Positions 49,244 to 55,227 of a stretch of 64,000 nucleotides of DNA are shown here, one piece after another. The translations under genes and the position numbers were made by a program. Every line of letters starts with the position of its first letter. The first letter of the stretch is position 1. This DNA comes from a virus. A model generated the notes under the pieces. It ran no database searches. It was not told the origin of the DNA and saw only the letters and a list, made by a program, of their open reading frames with translations. The stretch is from the IMG/VR virus record IMGVR_UViG_3300023179_000069, positions 1 to 64,000 of that record; one strand, given 5' to 3'.

Positions 49244-49275
49244 TATGATATTATTAGGTGTTGATCGGAGATAAA

Positions 49276-50286
49276 ATGAAAAGAGTATTGCTGACAGGTG
49301 CCAGTGGATTTGTGGGAAGCCATGTATTGCGTCACCTTATTGTAAACACAGATTGGTTTATTGTTTGTCCCACCACATTTACTCATAAGGGATTACAAGA
49401 TAGAATTCGTGTAGCCCTTGATGATATTCCAAATGCTTACAAGCGTGTCAAAGTAATTCGTTGCGATTTCACATCACCAATTTCACCTATTACTGCACAT
49501 GAGTTTGGCAAAATTGATTATGTAATTAATGTTGCAAGTGAGTCACATGTTGATCGAAGCATTGAATATCCAGCTTCTTTTATTATTAATAATGTTTCTC
49601 TTATTTGTCATTTATTGGATTGGGCTAAAATTGCTCAACCAGAAAAGTTTTTGCAGGTATCAACTGATGAAGTTTATGGTCCTGCCCCAGCTGGGTATGC
49701 ACATCAAGAATGGGTAGATCAGCATTTCCCAAGCAATCCATATTCTGCTAGTAAAGCAGCACAAGAAGATATTTGTTTTTCCTATTGGCGTACATATGGA
49801 ATTCCTATGGCTATTACTAATACTATGAATATTATTGGTGAGACACAAGATCCAGAAAAATTTATGCCAATGGTTATTAAGCGTGTTTTGAATGGTGAAA
49901 AGATGAGCATTCACTCATCCCCCACAGGACAGATTGGAAGCCGTTTTTATTTACATGCCCGTAACCAAGCAGACGGATTATTGCATGTTTTAAATCAACC
50001 ATTTAGACCTTATGGTGAGGTTGATACTCCAGAGCGTTTTCATATTGTCGGAGAGCGTGAAGTTGATAATCTTGAAATGGCACAATTAATTGCTTCAGCA
50101 GTTGGTAAGCCATTGAATTATGAACTTGTTGATTTTCATTCTTCTCGTCCCGGTCATGATTTGCGTTACGCTCTTGATGGAAAAAAGATGGCTGATTCTG
50201 GCTGGAGTCTTCCAATACCTTTAGAAGAATCTATTAATAGAACAGTTAAGTGGACACTTGACCATCAAGAGTGGCTAAACATCTAA
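49276..50286 (+). CDS. NDP-sugar 4,6-dehydratase (RmlB-like)
   Basis: TGASGFVG, 'ASESHVDRSI', 'STDEVYG', 'PYSASKA', 'RPGHDLRY'. Confidence 0.85.
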   Translation: MKRVLLTGASGFVGSHVLRHLIVNTDWFIVCPTTFTHKGLQDRIRVALDDIPNAYKRVKVIRCDFTSPISPITAHEFGKIDYVINVASESHVDRSIEYPASFIINNVSLICHLLDWAKIAQPEKFLQVSTDEVYGPAPAGYAHQEWVDQHFPSNPYSASKAAQEDICFSYWRTYGIPMAITNTMNIIGETQDPEKFMPMVIKRVLNGEKMSIHSSPTGQIGSRFYLHARNQADGLLHVLNQPFRPYGEVDTPERFHIVGEREVDNLEMAQLIASAVGKPLNYELVDFHSSRPGHDLRYALDGKKMADSGWSLPIPLEESINRTVKWTLDHQEWLNI

Positions 50287-50294
50287 GGAGAAAA

Positions 50295-51341
50295 ATGCAG
50301 CTTTATAAAATTCAGACACAAATTTGTTTTGATGATATCTTACTTGTTCCACAAGCATCAGAAGTGATATCTAGAAAAGATATCCATCTCGGCACACAAA
50401 TTGGTTATGGCAAATATGAAATTGATTTACCTTTTCCAATAATTGCCTCGCCAATGGATACTGTTTGTGAAGCAGAGATGGCAATAGAAATTGGTAAATT
50501 CGGCGGACTTGGAATTATTCATAGATATATGGATATTGAAAAACAAAAATCAGAAGTGTATAAAGTTGCCAGTCAAGGTTTACTTGTCGGAGCAGCGGTA
50601 TCCATAAAGGACGCAGAAGGAAAACAAGAAAACATAGAGAAACTAATTAATTCAGGAGCATCTATGATTCTTCTTGATGTTGCAAATGGTCATAGTGTGT
50701 ATGCCATAGATGCTGTAAGAAAAATAAAACAAAAATTCAAGGTACATGTCATGGCTGGGAATGTTTCAACATGGGATGGATTTTTGGGTTTATCTATGGC
50801 AGGCGCAGACTCTATCCGTGTTGGAATCGGTGGTGGTTCATGTTGTACTACAAGAATAGTAACTGGTCATGGAATGCCAACACTTTCATCTATTTTAGAT
50901 GTAAGGGAAATGCTTGAGCGTATGGATTTGCCAACATCAATTATTGCTGATGGTGGAATTAGAAACACTGGCGACATGATAAAATCTTTTGCAGCAGGAT
51001 CAGATGCAGTAATGCTAGGCTCAATGCTTGCAGGTCATGAAGAATCTCCGGGACAAAAGGAATATACTGAAAGTGGAACATTCAAAGTATTTCGTGGTAT
51101 GGCTAGTGAAGATGCTCAAATTGATTGGCGTGGAGAAGTTTCTGTTGCAGAGGGAATTTCAACAAAAATTAATTATAAGGGTAGCGTTATTGATACATTT
51201 AAAGAAATCAAGGGCGGTCTATCCAGTGGTTGTTCCTATTCTGGCGTAACTAGTCTTCACGATTTGATGTATAATTCACAATATATTTTAATTTCACAAA
51301 ATACAATAAAGGAGAGTTTGCCTCATGGGAAAAATGCCTAA
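50295..51341 (+). CDS. IMP dehydrogenase/GMP reductase family, lacking CBS domains
   Basis: 'FDDILLVP', 'SPMDTV', 'VGIGGGSCCTTR', 'IADGGI', 'FRGMAS'. Confidence 0.88.
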   Translation: MQLYKIQTQICFDDILLVPQASEVISRKDIHLGTQIGYGKYEIDLPFPIIASPMDTVCEAEMAIEIGKFGGLGIIHRYMDIEKQKSEVYKVASQGLLVGAAVSIKDAEGKQENIEKLINSGASMILLDVANGHSVYAIDAVRKIKQKFKVHVMAGNVSTWDGFLGLSMAGADSIRVGIGGGSCCTTRIVTGHGMPTLSSILDVREMLERMDLPTSIIADGGIRNTGDMIKSFAAGSDAVMLGSMLAGHEESPGQKEYTESGTFKVFRGMASEDAQIDWRGEVSVAEGISTKINYKGSVIDTFKEIKGGLSSGCSYSGVTSLHDLMYNSQYILISQNTIKESLPHGKNA

Positions 51342-52155: not shown

Positions 52156-52663
52156 AATTATTGATAATTTTGAAAGAATGAATAAGGTTGTTTCTGAAAT
52201 GTTAAAAGGAAACAATCCATCAATTATTGCAAAAAATCTTGATATGCCACGCGCACAAGTTTTAACATTAATTGATGAATGGAAAAATATTGTACATTCT
52301 GACAATAGAATTCAAGATAGAGCAAGGGAAGCGTTAAGCGCAGCAGATCAACATTATGCCATGATTATTAATGAAGCGTGGGATACAGTAGAAGAAGCAG
52401 GAGCCAATTCACAATTAAACATTAAAGCACAAGCACTTAAACTTATTGCTGATGTAGAAGGCAAAAGAATTGATATGCTTCAAAAAGCTGGTTTGCTAGA
52501 GAATGCCGACATTGGAAATCAAATTATTGAAACTGAAAGAAAACAAAAAATTCTTATTGATATTCTAAAAGATATATCTTCTCGTTGCGAATCATGTAAA
52601 ATTGAAGTAACTAAAAGAATCTCTGAAGTGACGGGAAAAGTAGAGGCAATTAAAATTGATTGA
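52142..52663 (+). CDS. Putative terminase small subunit
   Basis: N-terminal HTH, helical body, overlaps TerL start. Confidence 0.55.
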   Translation: MSELEIIDNFERMNKVVSEMLKGNNPSIIAKNLDMPRAQVLTLIDEWKNIVHSDNRIQDRAREALSAADQHYAMIINEAWDTVEEAGANSQLNIKAQALKLIADVEGKRIDMLQKAGLLENADIGNQIIETERKQKILIDILKDISSRCESCKIEVTKRISEVTGKVEAIKID

Positions 52664-54491
52664 TTTAAATGAGTTTTTAGATGTTTTGGATGAAGACGAA
52701 TTTGAAGAAAAGCCAGTTTCTATTGAAGAATTTGTTACATCTAAAAACTTTTTAAATCTTCCGCCATTGTCAAAATATCAATATATAATGCTTAGCGCAA
52801 TGACACAAATTTACAAGCGTGAAACATTAGAAAAATTATATGGAAAAGAGGAAGGGTTAAAAAGATATAAGCAAACTTGTAATGAAGTTATTTTTCAATT
52901 AGGCAAAGGTTCTGGAAAAGACTACACATCAACCATTGCTTGTGCCTATGTTGTTTATTTGTTGTTATGTTTAAAAGATCCAGCCAGATATTATGGAAAA
53001 CCCTCAGGCGATGCTATTGACATTATTAACATTGCTATTAACGCTGAGCAGGCTAAGCAAGTATTCTTCAAAGGTTTTTTAGCTCGTATTAAAAAAAGCC
53101 CTTGGTTTTCTGGAAAATTTGATGATAAGGTGGCTAAGGTAGAGTTTGATAAGGAAATCACTGTACATTCAGGTCACTCTCAAAGAGAATCTTGGGAGGG
53201 ATACAATGTTATTGTTGTTGTACTTGACGAGATTTCAGGCTTTGAATTAGATTCAACTTCAGGAAATGAACAGGCAAAAACAGCAGATGCAATTTATAAA
53301 ATGTATAGGGCTTCCGTTGCATCTCGTTTCCCAGATTTTGGTAAACTAATTCTTCTATCATTTCCTAGATTTAAAAATGATTATATTCAGCAAAAATACA
53401 ATGAAGCAGTTGCTGAAAAAGAAACTGTAATTAGAACACATACATTTAAAATTGATCCAGATTTACCGGATGAACTTGAAGAAAATAAATTTACTATTGA
53501 ATGGGAAGAAGATCACATTGTTTCTTATTCTGTTCCAAAAGTATTTGCACTAAAAAGACCCACTTGGGAAATTAATCCAACAAGAAAAATTGAAGATTTT
53601 ACAATTGATTTTTACAAAGACCCAATAGATTCATTATCAAGATTTGCTTGTATGCCACCGGACGCTGTAGATGCATTCTTTAAGTCCAGAGAAAAAATTG
53701 AAAGAGCTTTTGTTACCAGAAATGGTGTTGATGAATATGGAAGGTTCGCTGACGGATTTCAGCCAGAAGAAGGCAAAACATATTTCGTACATGTGGACTT
53801 GGCGCAAAAGCATGACCATTGTGCAGTAGCAATTGCTCATGTTGATAAATGGACTATCTTAAAAGTTGGCGGACAGATGAGAGATGCTGCCCCTGAAGTT
53901 GTTGTAGATGCAGTAAGATGGTGGACTCCAACATCCGATAAAAGCGTAAACTTTCAAGATGTTAAAGATTATATTCTTAGTCTTAGGTCTCGTGGATTTA
54001 ATATTAAAACTGTTACATTTGATCGCTGGAATTCACATGACCTTATGGCACAACTTAATGCTTATGGAATGAATGCTGAAATTTTATCGGTTGCCAAAAA
54101 ACATTATGATGACATGGCACTTGTTGTAACAGAAGAAAGATTAAAGGGTCCAAATATTAAATTGCTTATTGATGAACTTTTACAATTAAGAATTATTAAA
54201 GATAAGGTTGACCACCCAAGAAAGGGTTCAAAAGACTTGTCTGATGCGGTTTGTGGAGCAATATATAATGCTGTAAGTTTAACCCCTAGAGGTGAATCAG
54301 AAATTACAATTAAAGATTATTATAATTTTGCAGATATTGATGAAGATGATGACGCAAAGATGAGACAACATTTAAGCATTACAAGAATTCCAACTGATAA
54401 AGTTATGCCGGATAACATTAGAGACTATTTAAGTTCTGAAATTACTAGATCAGAAGAGCAAAGGTTTCTTGACAATTTCCAAATTATATAG
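52656..54491 (+). CDS. terL: Terminase large subunit
   Basis: 'GKGSGKD' Walker A, 'VVLDE' Walker B, nuclease 'HVDLA..HD', 'FDRWNS', 'KDLSDA'. Confidence 0.9.
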   Translation: MIDLNEFLDVLDEDEFEEKPVSIEEFVTSKNFLNLPPLSKYQYIMLSAMTQIYKRETLEKLYGKEEGLKRYKQTCNEVIFQLGKGSGKDYTSTIACAYVVYLLLCLKDPARYYGKPSGDAIDIINIAINAEQAKQVFFKGFLARIKKSPWFSGKFDDKVAKVEFDKEITVHSGHSQRESWEGYNVIVVVLDEISGFELDSTSGNEQAKTADAIYKMYRASVASRFPDFGKLILLSFPRFKNDYIQQKYNEAVAEKETVIRTHTFKIDPDLPDELEENKFTIEWEEDHIVSYSVPKVFALKRPTWEINPTRKIEDFTIDFYKDPIDSLSRFACMPPDAVDAFFKSREKIERAFVTRNGVDEYGRFADGFQPEEGKTYFVHVDLAQKHDHCAVAIAHVDKWTILKVGGQMRDAAPEVVVDAVRWWTPTSDKSVNFQDVKDYILSLRSRGFNIKTVTFDRWNSHDLMAQLNAYGMNAEILSVAKKHYDDMALVVTEERLKGPNIKLLIDELLQLRIIKDKVDHPRKGSKDLSDAVCGAIYNAVSLTPRGESEITIKDYYNFADIDEDDDAKMRQHLSITRIPTDKVMPDNIRDYLSSEITRSEEQRFLDNFQII

Positions 54492-54498
54492 GTATAAT
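54469..54498 (+). promoter_or_regulatory. Promoter TTGACA-18-TATAAT for the tRNA-Ile/ncRNA unit
   Basis: Consensus hexamers 54469-74 and 54493-98. Confidence 0.75.
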
Positions 54499-54507
54499 AA
54501 GTTTTAC

Positions 54508-54582
54508 CGGGCGTGGGTGAGCTGGTTGACCACCGCAGGCTTATATCCTGCTATTTGATGGGTTCGATTCCCATACGCCCGA
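54508..54582 (+). tRNA. tRNA-Ile(UAU), atypical
   Basis: Acceptor CGGGCGT/ACGCCCG; anticodon arm GCAGG-CTTATAT-CCTGC; T arm ATGGG-TTCGATT-CCCAT; G at position 8; no encoded CCA. Confidence 0.75.
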
Positions 54583-54584
54583 CT

Positions 54585-54699
54585 GAGTGGTAGGTAGCGC
54601 ATCTTAGGATGGATTAGTTACCCAAGCCGGATGAGTCCAAGTGTGAGATAGTTCTCCGACCCATTTGATGCAGGACTCGGCAAGTTCTACCTACCACTC
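54585..54699 (+). ncRNA. Unknown structured RNA directly after tRNA-Ile
   Basis: Perfect 13-bp closing stem GAGTGGTAGGTAG/CTACCTACCACTC with internal GAGTCC/GGACTC and GAGA/TCTC stems. Confidence 0.6.
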
Positions 54700-54729: not shown

Positions 54730-55227
54730 ATGCGAACTATAACGAAACAGCAAATAGTAGAAACATTAAAGAGTCGTGATGGTGACTCTTGTTTTATTTG
54801 CAAGGAAGAGTTCGTTGATGAATCACCTACTTTAGACCATTGGATTCCATTAGCTCATGGCGGTAGGGATGAAATAGAAAATCTTAGGCTTGCACATAGA
54901 AAATGCAATACGGAAAAAGCAGATAGAATTCCTAATGAAGATGGTACTATTCCTGAGCGGGGAATAAATAGTTTTGATAGACATAGAATGAAAAGAATGA
55001 ATAAAAAAAAACTAAAAGAAAAAATATGTCGCGTATGCGAAGATGGAAGACTTTTAGCAAAAGATAATTTATGTCGTGTTTGTGGAGCAAGGCCCGGACC
55101 AGAACATGCACCACATTACTTAAAAAGACCGTCTAATATTTGTGACCACAATTTAAATTGGTGCTGGGCTTGCTCAATTGGAATTGTTGATAGAAAATCA
55201 GCGTTAGCAAATTTAATGACAGGATGA
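54730..55227 (+). CDS. HNH endonuclease with C-terminal Zn fingers
   Basis: 'RDGDSCFIC', 'LDHWIPLAHGG...NLRLAHRKCN'. Confidence 0.85.
   Translation: MRTITKQQIVETLKSRDGDSCFICKEEFVDESPTLDHWIPLAHGGRDEIENLRLAHRKCNTEKADRIPNEDGTIPERGINSFDRHRMKRMNKKKLKEKICRVCEDGRLLAKDNLCRVCGARPGPEHAPHYLKRPSNICDHNLNWCWACSIGIVDRKSALANLMTG

What the first reader, a model, noticed from the sequence alone, without database searches (positions are those of the whole stretch)
54585..54699. Unexplained 115-nt structured RNA co-transcribed with tRNA-Ile
Seen: begins 2 nt after the tRNA discriminator. It has a perfect 13-bp terminal stem, inner GCC..GAGTCC/GGACTC-GGC, a GAGA-TAGT-TCTC hairpin, and GCATC..ATGG (54599-54612) complementary to CCAT..GATGC (54661-54671), giving a pseudoknot or alternative fold. 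It is GC-rich against an AT-rich background and has no ORF. Inference: a novel phage small RNA (ribozyme, Y-RNA-like decoy or packaging-related RNA, given its place between TerL and HNH).
Basis: partly seen in the sequence, partly recalled or inferred. Interest (0 to 1): 0.75.

Follow-up and report, generated by a model that had tools for sequence, protein, structure and literature searches.

The report
Phage RNA antisense to ribosomal helix 69
The 115-base stretch behind the phage's isoleucine tRNA is a real, conserved, knotted small RNA whose unchanging core is the mirror-image complement of helix 69 of bacterial 23S ribosomal RNA, so the phage probably grips the host's large ribosomal subunit with an RNA, which I found in no paper.

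Summary
Window 54585-54699 is a stem-closed, pseudoknotted RNA. It is co-transcribed with tRNA-Ile(UAU) from a 12/12 consensus promoter. No Rfam family matches it.

It belongs to a large family in uncultured freshwater phages: 69 distinct copies were collected, and 40 of 81 terminase-anchored sources hold one. All 12 modelled pairs of the closing stem show compensatory changes. Copies start either 0-2 nt after a tRNA (34 of 69) or 5-8 nt after a TATAAT-like box (32 of the other 35).

The invariant core at 54603-54622 is the reverse complement of 23S rRNA helix 69 and the adjoining linker. That site is the best duplex site in 26 of 31 distinct elements.

Scaffolds that the covariance model does not match carry the exact 19-nt antisense, always on the transcribed strand. 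Variants that keep G·U pairing were found in 14 loci, against 2 for non-pairing controls. Cultured Vibrio and Streptomyces phages carry versions.

Best reading: an antisense RNA aimed at host 23S rRNA. The consequence for the host is unknown. This scan noted the same class earlier on other DNA. I found no publication on it.

The parts
54469..54498 (+). sigma-70-type promoter TTGACA-18-TATAAT driving tRNA-Ile and the RNA
   Evidence: 12 of 12 consensus matches. It ends 9 nt before the tRNA start.
54508..54583 (+). tRNA-Ile, anticodon UAU; its 3' processing defines the 5' end of the RNA
   Evidence: ARAGORN; Rfam tRNA model at 36.8 bits. All four other members of the window's subfamily also follow a tRNA-Ile(UAU) at 0-1 nt.
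54585..54699 (+). the small RNA, 115 nt (anti-helix-69 RNA, tRNA-array type)
   Evidence: Covariance model R1 matches at 88.6 bits. nhmmer found homologues. MFE z = -3.26.
54585..54597 (+). closing stem P1, 5' strand (pairs with 54687-54699)
   Evidence: Perfect 13 bp in the window. Across the family 98.9% of cells are paired and 12 of 12 pairs change on both sides.
54687..54699 (+). closing stem P1, 3' strand
54603..54622 (+). invariant core CUUAGGAUGGAUUAGUUACC, the reverse complement of the 23S rRNA helix 69 loop, its 3' strand and the following UCCUAAG
   Evidence: The two 7-mers CUUAGGA and UAGUUAC are the exact complement of UCCUAAG and GUAACUA in fetched 23S genes. 18 of 20 positions match the L209 23S fragment on the opposite strand. 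It is the best duplex site among 994 windows of a 23S gene, at -27.2 kcal/mol.
54599..54603 (+). P2a 5' strand GCAUC (pairs with GAUGC 54667-54671)
   Evidence: Present in the window. 62-63% paired in the family alignments, where the register is uncertain.
54608..54612 (+). P2b 5' strand GAUGG (pairs with CCAUU 54661-54665); part of the antisense core
   Evidence: 80-95% paired. In the small family members the same bases pair with a nearby CYAUUUU, leaving a 9-nt loop AUUAGUUAC.
54633..54638 (+). pseudoknot helix 5' strand GAGUCC (pairs with GGACUC 54673-54678, which lies outside P2)
   Evidence: 74% paired across all large subfamilies. The conserved AGAGUY faces GGAAU, with G.A in the middle where the window has G-C.
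54645..54651 (+). conserved GAGAUAG, probably unpaired or tertiary
Evidence: Conserved as sequence in the alignment.
54661..54671 (+). 3' strands of P2b and P2a (CCAUU-U-GAUGC)
54673..54678 (+). pseudoknot helix 3' strand GGACUC
52656..54491 (+). terminase large subunit (upstream neighbour, synteny anchor; not part of the RNA's function)
   Evidence: phrog_2, E = 1e-19. 63-69% identical to terminases of Streptomyces phages.
54730..55227 (+). HNH endonuclease gene downstream (neighbour; link to the RNA unproven)
   Evidence: Pfam HNH, 1.3e-11; phrog_9645. HNH ORFs of four clusters lie within 3 kb in 36 of 69 loci.

Best explanation
Window 54585-54699 encodes a stable small RNA of a large, so far undescribed family in freshwater tailed phages.

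Production. It is transcribed with tRNA-Ile(UAU) from one consensus promoter. Its 5' end would be freed by the host's tRNA 3'-end processing; how its 3' end is made is not known, since no tRNA or terminator follows it. That the ends lie at the closing stem is inferred from position, not shown.

Fold. A 13-bp closing stem encloses a pseudoknotted core. The family's only invariant bases (54603-54622) are the complement of 23S rRNA helix 69 and the linker to helix 70. In the minimal family members this antisense sits in a hairpin whose 9-nt loop displays UAGUUAC, the complement of the helix 69 loop.

Proposed mechanism (inferred). The RNA docks on helix 69 of nascent 23S rRNA or of free 50S subunits by loop-loop pairing. 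Pairing then spreads into the stem and the UCCUAAG linker, so the RNA occupies or unfolds the intersubunit bridge element.

Consequence (speculative). Either subunit joining is blocked, or the neighbouring RNase E entry site (after residue 1942 in E. coli) is exposed and host 23S rRNA is degraded for nucleotides.
For: The RNA is real:
- No ORF overlaps it, GC is 0.50 in a 0.34 genome, and the MFE z-score is -3.26.
- 69 distinct relatives were collected.
- Model R1 matches 40 of 81 sources in the terminase-anchored, unbiased set, all on the terminase strand.
- In P1, 12 of 12 pairs change on both sides and 98.9% of cells are paired. All slid controls give 34-41% paired.

The ends and the transcribed strand are defined by nature:
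- 34 of 69 copies start 0-2 nt after a same-strand tRNA.
- 32 of the other 35 have a -10 box (at least 5 of 6) ending 5-8 nt upstream, against 1 of 34 among the tRNA-preceded copies.

The core is antisense to 23S:
- A genome-wide scan with the core pattern hit a 23S fragment on the opposite strand.
- Fetched 23S genes read GUAACUAUAACGGUCCUAAGGUAGCG.
- The helix 69 site is the best of 994 duplex windows in 26 of 31 distinct elements.
- The phage's own genome holds no target; the best site matches 17 of 26 positions.

Scaffolds that the model does not match do the same:
- The exact 19-nt canonical antisense occurs in 14 non-rRNA viral loci (7 distinct). By my own rough estimate, about one chance hit would be expected.
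- Each of these lies on the same strand as its upstream gene or tRNA array or behind a promoter-like box; five of the seven are followed within about 30 nt by a GC hairpin and U run.
- R1 matches none of them.

Pairing acts at the RNA level:
- Variants that keep G.U pairs (A>G, C>U) occur in 14 further loci. Non-pairing changes at the same two positions occur in 2 loci, 1 distinct.
- Both differences in the cultured Vibrio phages are of the wobble kind.

A second antisense block, UCGCUAC(C), which is the complement of GGUAGCGA, recurs in terminator loops or 45-75 nt downstream.

Feasibility from the literature:
- A synthetic PNA against helix 69 blocks translation and E. coli growth (Kulik 2017, as described in a passage of PMC12828698).
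- A cut by RNase E after residue 1942 starts 23S decay (passages of PMC4931109).
Against: - Nothing here shows expression or binding.
- In the window's RNA the complement is imperfect. It consists of two exact 7-mers plus GG, with a 1-nt bulge and one G-G mismatch against the canonical 23S sequence.
- Part of the antisense is held in the RNA's own helices P2b and P3, so it is not a free seed.
- In 5 of 31 elements the helix 69 site ranked 5th to 19th rather than first.
- Some core variants carry changes that break pairing, such as G>A and G>U.
- Mature helix 69 is modified and buried in 70S ribosomes (my own knowledge). Ribosomes far outnumber a typical small RNA, so a stoichiometric block is hard to picture.
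- The host is unknown. The CCAUCC-type stem that would pair perfectly with GGAUGG was seen in only one 619-nt contig and in 0 of 48 Pseudomonadota genomes that matched the 23S pattern (of 81 searched).
Confidence: 0.6

Rival explanations
1. It is a structured RNA that works through its own fold, as a protein-binding RNA, decoy or aptamer. On this reading the invariant bases are tertiary or protein contacts, and the complementarity to helix 69 is a relic of origin or a coincidence.
For: The core is partly base-paired inside a compact pseudoknot, together with other conserved non-antisense motifs (AGAGUY, GAGAUAG, GUGC, GGAAU). The complement is imperfect in the window. HNH genes lie within 3 kb in 36 of 69 loci.
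Against: Unrelated scaffolds keep the same antisense, and some keep it exactly. The two invariant 7-mers face universally conserved 23S bases. Wobble-compatible variants outnumber non-pairing ones, 14 loci to 2. No protein partner is conserved next to the RNA across scaffolds.
Confidence: 0.2
2. It is a self-cleaving ribozyme or processing module that frees the neighbouring tRNA. This was the first reader's first guess, by analogy with the HDV-like ribozymes behind phage tRNAs (recalled, not read here).
For: It abuts the tRNA 3' end at 0-2 nt in 34 of 69 copies and has a pseudoknotted fold.
Against: No ribozyme family matches at E up to 10. 32 of the 35 copies without an upstream tRNA have their own promoter box and nothing to process. 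The conserved bases are explained by the 23S complement.
Confidence: 0.05
3. The feature acts as DNA. It would be an rDNA-like site for a homing endonuclease or for recombination; the region matches the 23S site known from my own knowledge as the I-CeuI site. An extension of this reading is that the RNA guides the neighbouring HNH nuclease to host rRNA genes.
For: HNH genes are frequent neighbours. T4 also has a homing endonuclease gene inside its tRNA cluster.
Against: The stems covary as RNA. Substitutions preserve G.U pairs, which matter only in RNA. Many carriers have no HNH nearby (33 of 69; other scaffolds). A guide would also match its own gene.
Confidence: 0.05
4. The opposite strand is the functional one, giving a mimic of helix 69 rather than an antisense.
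For: None beyond the fact that double-stranded DNA carries both readings.
Against: Promoter boxes, tRNAs, U-runs and flanking genes all point to the antisense strand in the window family. The same holds in every other scaffold examined.
Confidence: 0.03

Closest known systems
Trans-acting antisense and base-pairing small RNAs of bacteria, plasmids and phages, including those that start pairing through a hairpin loop (own knowledge)
   Same: A short, defined transcript. A conserved stretch complementary to a target RNA, displayed partly in a loop. Its own promoter and terminator in many members.
   Different: The presumed target is a functional centre of ribosomal RNA, not an mRNA. Many copies are excised from tRNA arrays. 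The window's version is a closed, pseudoknotted 115-nt fold rather than a seed plus terminator.
Bacteriophage T4 species 1 and 2 RNAs (rnaC, rnaD)
   Same: Small stable RNAs of 139 and 119 nt lying directly behind a tRNA in a phage tRNA cluster that also holds a homing endonuclease gene. Their function has long been unknown (own knowledge).
   Different: There is no sequence or model similarity: R1 finds nothing in the T4 locus. rnaC contains a GGGUUCGAAUCCCGG T-arm-like hairpin (reading it as tRNA-like is mine). I saw no helix 69 complement in the printed sequences, but I ran no dedicated search.
Synthetic anti-helix-69 peptide nucleic acids (Kulik et al. 2017, known to me only through a passage of PMC12828698)
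   Same: An antisense oligomer aimed at helix 69 of 23S rRNA; it blocks translation and growth.
   Different: It is man-made, short and unstructured. The phage RNA is natural and folded, and also covers the helix 69/70 linker.
HDV-like ribozymes downstream of tRNAs in gut phages
   Same: A structured, pseudoknotted RNA placed right after a phage tRNA.
   Different: No HDV-type model matches. Half of this family stands alone behind its own promoter.
Y RNAs / bacterial YrlA
   Same: About 100 nt, with the 5' and 3' ends joined in a long stem around a structured interior.
   Different: There is no Ro/TROVE gene in the record, no tRNA-like module and no Rfam match.

Membership tests
Any Rfam 15 family (4227 models, including self-cleaving ribozymes) | Covariance-model score at or above the gathering threshold | tested here: not met
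   Only tRNAs pass in the window. Nothing overlaps 54585-54699 even at E up to 10. The same holds for 14 related loci and for a small family member.
Y RNA / YrlA | A partner Ro60/Rsr (TROVE) gene in the same genome | tested here: not met
   PF05731 gives 0 matches in the 82.5-kb record. The record is estimated 66% complete, so absence is not proven.
Y RNA / YrlA | A tRNA-like module (T-arm and D-arm) in the interior | tested here: not met
   ARAGORN and the Rfam tRNA model call nothing inside 54585-54699.
Self-cleaving ribozymes next to phage tRNAs | Site-specific self-cleavage | not testable with these tools
   Only indirect evidence is available: no model match, and there are stand-alone members with their own promoter box.
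Trans-acting base-pairing small RNA | A discrete transcript with defined ends | tested here: met
   Shown by position only. The window has a 12/12 promoter. 34 of 69 copies abut a tRNA, and 32 of the other 35 have a -10 box 5-8 nt upstream. No expression data exist.
Trans-acting base-pairing small RNA | A conserved stretch complementary to a target RNA | tested here: met
   The invariant core is the complement of 23S helix 69 and the linker. It is the best site in 26 of 31 elements.
Trans-acting base-pairing small RNA | The seed is accessible (unpaired) | tested here: inconclusive
   UAGUUAC lies in a 9-nt loop in small members. In the window, GAUGG is in helix P2b.
Phage anti-helix-69 RNAs (a class seen only in this scan, unpublished) | The least variable bases are the complement of the 23S helix 69/70 region, on the transcribed strand | tested here: met
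Phage anti-helix-69 RNAs (a class seen only in this scan, unpublished) | Substitutions tolerate G.U wobble, as expected for RNA-RNA pairing | tested here: met
   Met at class level: 14 loci with wobble-compatible variants against 2 loci with non-pairing variants. Within the window family the pattern is mixed.
Phage anti-helix-69 RNAs (a class seen only in this scan, unpublished) | Physical binding to 23S rRNA or the 50S subunit | not testable with these tools
   Only predicted duplex energy is available: -27.2 kcal/mol for the window core.
T4 rnaC/rnaD-type stable RNAs | Sequence or structure homology to rnaC or rnaD | tested here: not met
   R1 finds no match in the T4 tRNA-cluster locus L213. 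The predicted folds differ.

The most novel reading that the evidence does not exclude
Tailed phages of many lineages carry a natural RNA weapon against the ribosome. Small RNAs dock by loop-loop pairing on helices 69 and 70 of free or nascent 50S subunits and pry open the intersubunit bridge. This exposes the RNase E entry site just downstream (after residue 1942 in E. coli), switching host ribosomes from translation to a nucleotide supply for phage DNA synthesis. The window's pseudoknotted, tRNA-array version would be one of several scaffolds for this device that the covariance model does not connect.
Probability: 0.2. Interest if true: 0.92.

Novelty: new variant of a known kind. Interest (0 to 1): 0.82.

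Why it matters
No natural antisense RNA aimed at a functional centre of ribosomal RNA turned up in the papers I could search. Here the same 23S site, helix 69/70, is faced by conserved phage RNAs on several scaffolds that the covariance model does not connect. The carriers include cultured Vibrio and Streptomyces phages, so the idea can be tested at the bench at once.

If the RNAs bind 23S rRNA, this is a new route of host takeover. It would also be a natural precedent for anti-ribosomal antisense drugs. It might further explain small stable RNAs of unknown function in phage tRNA clusters, a question open since T4 rnaC and rnaD.

For annotation, it gives a name and a testable role to a frequent "spacer" in phage tRNA arrays.

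Tried and rejected
Database and literature searches:
- Rfam at gathering and at E up to 10, on the window, on 14 loci and on a small family member, gave nothing but tRNAs and chance hits.
- blastn of the element and of two relatives against 50,697 phage records gave no match or chance-level hits only.
- Literature searches by core sequence and by concept found no description. The ΦKZ Grad-seq paper (PMC8545117) was read in passages only and is not related.
- Expression: no RNA holder is listed among the 22 public runs returned.

Structure:
- The register of P2a is left open (62-63% paired).
- I considered hammerhead, HDV, twister, pistol, hatchet and hairpin-ribozyme cores, a 5S loop E, the L11-binding region of 23S, the T-box distal loop and H/ACA or C/D guides. 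These were resemblances from memory only. None was supported by a model match, and all were dropped once the helix 69 complement was found.

Target and partners:
- No target lies inside the phage genome; the best site matches 17 of 26 positions.
- No conserved partner protein was found. Neighbour clustering gave only lineage synteny (a head gene and TerL) plus Hsp20, Dps-like, ThyX and HNH genes.
- There is no TROVE gene.
- There is no complement of the 16S 3' end in the window.

Host helix 69 variant:
- A sample of 81 Pseudomonadota genomes gave only the CGGUCC type (one CGAUCC) in the 48 genomes that matched.
- I could not reach actinobacterial genomes with the handles I had, so the idea that GGAUGG matches an actinobacterial stem rests on recall and on the Streptomyces-phage hit.
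- Whether core variants track host variants could not be tested.

Not used: complex prediction, structure prediction and the protein-database searches, because no protein claim is made.
Full report
**The observation.**
The window is part of an 82.5-kb IMG/VR phage record with GC 0.34. A 12/12 consensus promoter lies at 54469-54498. It is followed by tRNA-Ile(UAU) at 54508-54583 and, 2 nt after the discriminator, by the 115-nt element at 54585-54699.

- a perfect 13-bp closing stem;
- GCAUC..GAUGG facing CCAUU..GAUGC;
- GAGUCC facing GGACUC, with GCC facing GGC;
- a GAGA/UCUC hairpin.

GC is 0.50 against about 0.31-0.35 around it. No ORF of 40 aa or more overlaps it. It folds better than all 200 shuffles (z = -3.26). 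No Rfam family matches at gathering or at E up to 10.

**A large family.**
- The upstream gene is a terminase large subunit. Using it, I fetched 80 related viral loci.
- nhmmer, then a profile, found the element downstream of the terminase in many of them.
- Together with loci fetched by a core pattern (a biased sample), I collected 109 places and 69 distinct sequences.
- A covariance model built on 27 large members matched 40 of the 81 unbiased sources (the window plus L002-L081). All matches lie on the terminase strand.
- The same model also matched two small members in bacterial MAG contigs.

The family has two architectures:
- Copies of 100-136 nt inside tRNA arrays. 34 of 69 start 0-2 nt after a same-strand tRNA (Ile-UAU 14, Met 7, Gln 6, Leu 7). 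26 have a tRNA within 10 nt downstream.
- Copies of 76-91 nt standing alone. 32 of the 35 without an upstream tRNA have a TATAAT-like box ending 5-8 nt before the stem, against 1 of 34 among the others. 12 of the 35 have a run of at least four T behind the stem.

Two independent ways of making the same 5' end fix both the unit and the transcribed strand.

**Structure.**
I counted pairs on the 27-sequence alignment and on the model-fitted alignment of 32 distinct sequences (this alignment leans towards the model):
- The closing stem is paired in 98-99% of cells. 12 of 13 and 12 of 12 pairs change on both sides. Slid controls give 29-41%.
- GAUGG/CCAUU is 80-95% paired.
- The crossing helix GAGUCC/GGACUC is 74% paired across all large subfamilies. 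The conserved AGAGUY faces GGAAU, with a central G.A where the window has G-C. The pseudoknot is therefore a family feature.
- GCAUC/GAUGC is 62-63% paired, with an uncertain register.
- The GAGA/UCUC hairpin is 34% paired and exists only in the window's own subfamily. That subfamily has five distinct members, all behind tRNA-Ile(UAU).
- Most small members fold into the closing stem plus a hairpin UAGGAUGG[AUUAGUUAC]CYAUUUUR.

**What the invariant core is.**
The only bases that never change across the family are CUUAGGA..UAGUUAC. The steps were:
- A scan of 185,579 species' genomes with the core pattern gave seven places.
- Two of them are true small-type elements. One is a 23S rRNA fragment read on the opposite strand.
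- 23S genes fetched from four genomes, and then from a sample of 81 Pseudomonadota genomes, read GUAACUAUAACGGUCCUAAGGUAGCG.
- So UAGUUAC is the complement of the helix 69 loop and its closing G, and CUUAGGA is the complement of the UCCUAAG that follows the helix. The helix names and E. coli numbers (about 1906-1938) come from my own knowledge.
- Opposite-strand identity to the fragment L209: window 18 of 20, L024 20 of 21, L139 20 of 20, L174 22 of 24.
- With RNAduplex, the helix 69 site is the best of 994 windows of a 3-kb 23S segment in 26 of 31 distinct elements of the unbiased set. The other five rank 5th to 19th. The window's value is -27.2 kcal/mol.
- The phage genome itself holds no target.

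Against the canonical 23S sequence, the window's complement is imperfect: two exact 7-mers, a U.G pair, a G-G mismatch and a 1-nt bulge. A second core variant, GGAUGUUAUAGUUAC, keeps an 11-nt exact complement of the loop and moves the bulge elsewhere.

**The same device on other scaffolds.**
- The exact 19-nt canonical antisense occurs in 15 viral loci. One is a true rRNA fragment. The other 14 (seven distinct) are not rRNA.
- In these the antisense strand runs with the upstream gene or the tRNA array, or starts behind a promoter-like box. Five of the seven are followed within about 30 nt by a GC hairpin and U run.
- By my rough estimate, about one chance hit would be expected for a single 19-mer in this collection.
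- Allowing A>G and C>U at two positions, which keeps G.U pairs, added 14 loci. Allowing the non-pairing bases at the same positions gave 2 loci, one distinct sequence. This speaks for pairing as RNA, not for identity as DNA.
- Several of these RNAs carry a second block, UCGCUAC(C), the complement of GGUAGCGA just downstream in 23S. It sits in the terminator loop or 45-75 nt further on. In small members of the window's family, AUCGCU or CUAC precedes the core.
- Model R1 matches none of these scaffolds. They are either independent inventions or diverged beyond recognition.

**Cultured carriers.**
- Five T5-size Vibrio phages carry a 22 of 24 match: PWH3a-P1, qdvp001, vB_VpaM_R16F, vB_VibM_10AMN and P018-4. 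Both differences are of the wobble type. The match is intergenic and on the gene strand. In R16F it lies just upstream of tRNA-Arg and tRNA-Met. The record's strand for those tRNAs disagrees with ARAGORN.
- Six Streptomyces phages (Samisti12, Sushi23, Teutsch, Tribute, Pepperwood, Larnav) carry GCUAGCUUAGGAUGGUAUAAUUAC followed by a terminator, after the endolysin gene. That is the GGAUGG type of core seen in the window's family.
- The Streptomyces-phage records listed in the terminase search have terminases 63-69% identical to the window's; the six carriers named above were not among the 25 records shown. This hints at an actinobacterial host, but I could not test that.

**Mechanism.**
Shown here:
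- a conserved, correctly oriented RNA;
- its fold;
- the complementarity to 23S, its statistical weight and its recurrence.

Inferred:
- that the RNA pairs with 23S rRNA, starting from the UAGUUAC loop and spreading into the stem and linker.

Supported from the literature:
- A synthetic PNA against helix 69 blocks translation and growth (a passage of PMC12828698 citing Kulik 2017).
- In E. coli, 23S decay starts with an RNase E cut after residue 1942, which lies next to the targeted stretch (passages of PMC4931109).

Speculative:
- whether the outcome is a block of subunit joining, interference with 50S assembly, or triggered rRNA decay that feeds nucleotide pools.

**Objections.**
- The seed is partly sequestered in the RNA's own helices.
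- The window's complement is imperfect.
- Mature helix 69 is modified and buried in 70S ribosomes (own knowledge).
- Stoichiometry is unfavourable, because ribosomes are far more abundant than a typical small RNA.
- No expression data exist.

**Rivals.**
- A fold-driven RNA (protein binder or decoy) remains possible, at about 0.2.
- A ribozyme, a DNA-level rDNA-like site or HNH guide, and an opposite-strand helix 69 mimic are each unlikely. The reasons are given under the rival explanations.

**Comparison and novelty.**
The element works like a trans-acting antisense RNA and sits like T4's rnaC and rnaD. It is a member of neither, and of no Rfam family.

Earlier notes of this scan describe the same class on other DNA. 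They include the same tRNA-array family (e1-5985306) and the small promoter-driven type (e1-6036807). I reached the helix 69 reading before opening those notes and tested it independently. They are not evidence.

- the wobble versus non-wobble scan;
- the family-wide pseudoknot helix;
- the dichotomy between tRNA-adjacent and promoter-driven copies;
- the cultured Vibrio and Streptomyces carriers;
- the adjacency to the RNase E site.

I found no publication on this class; supplementary files could not be searched.

**Verdict.**
- It is a real RNA of a new family: about 0.95.
- Its function rests on complementarity to 23S helix 69: about 0.6.
- The consequence for the host is open.

Noticed in passing
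window 54508-54583: tRNA-Ile with anticodon UAU has its own 12/12 consensus promoter. The Rfam tRNA model scored it at only 36.8 bits, and the whole-window gathering search did not list it. All five members of the RNA's subfamily follow such a tRNA.
   Followed up: partly
window 54730-55227 and neighbours of 69 related loci: HNH endonuclease ORFs of four different clusters lie within 3 kb of the RNA in 36 of 69 loci, mostly downstream. Whether this is homing-endonuclease traffic in tRNA arrays or a functional link is open.
   Followed up: partly
L214 189-207, L218 1064-1082: Other anti-helix-69 RNAs carry UAUCGCUA(C/A), the complement of the 23S GGUAGCGA stretch, in the loop of their terminator hairpin. 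This suggests a two-site (double loop) contact.
   Followed up: partly
L231 929-1104 (Vibrio phage vB_VpaM_R16F): The GenBank record places tRNA-Arg and tRNA-Met on the strand opposite to the one ARAGORN finds and swaps their identities. This looks like an annotation error.
   Followed up: partly
L202/L209 (619-nt contig of a Parasphingorhabdus MAG): This 23S fragment has a GGUGG/CCAUC helix 69 stem and a loop one base shorter than usual. It is the only such sequence the core pattern hit in 185,579 species' genomes. The same MAG also holds two contigs with the canonical sequence. It may be contamination or an assembly error.
   Followed up: partly
window 49258-51341: An NAD-dependent epimerase/dehydratase gene and an IMP dehydrogenase/GMP reductase family gene lie upstream of the packaging genes. 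These are auxiliary nucleotide and sugar metabolism genes in a phage.
   Followed up: no
neighbours of small-type elements (for example L187, L161, L102): Hsp20-like, Dps/ferritin-like and ThyX-like ORFs flank the stand-alone RNAs; I named them by eye from the translations. The Vibrio phage PWH3a-P1 record also annotates an Hsp20 gene about 0.8 kb from its anti-helix-69 element.
   Followed up: no
L213 (T4, record positions 70908-71171): T4 rnaC (139 nt) folds well (z = -4.57) and contains a GGGUUCGAAUCCCGG T-arm-like hairpin. rnaD (119 nt) folds no better than its shuffles (z = -0.83).
   Followed up: no
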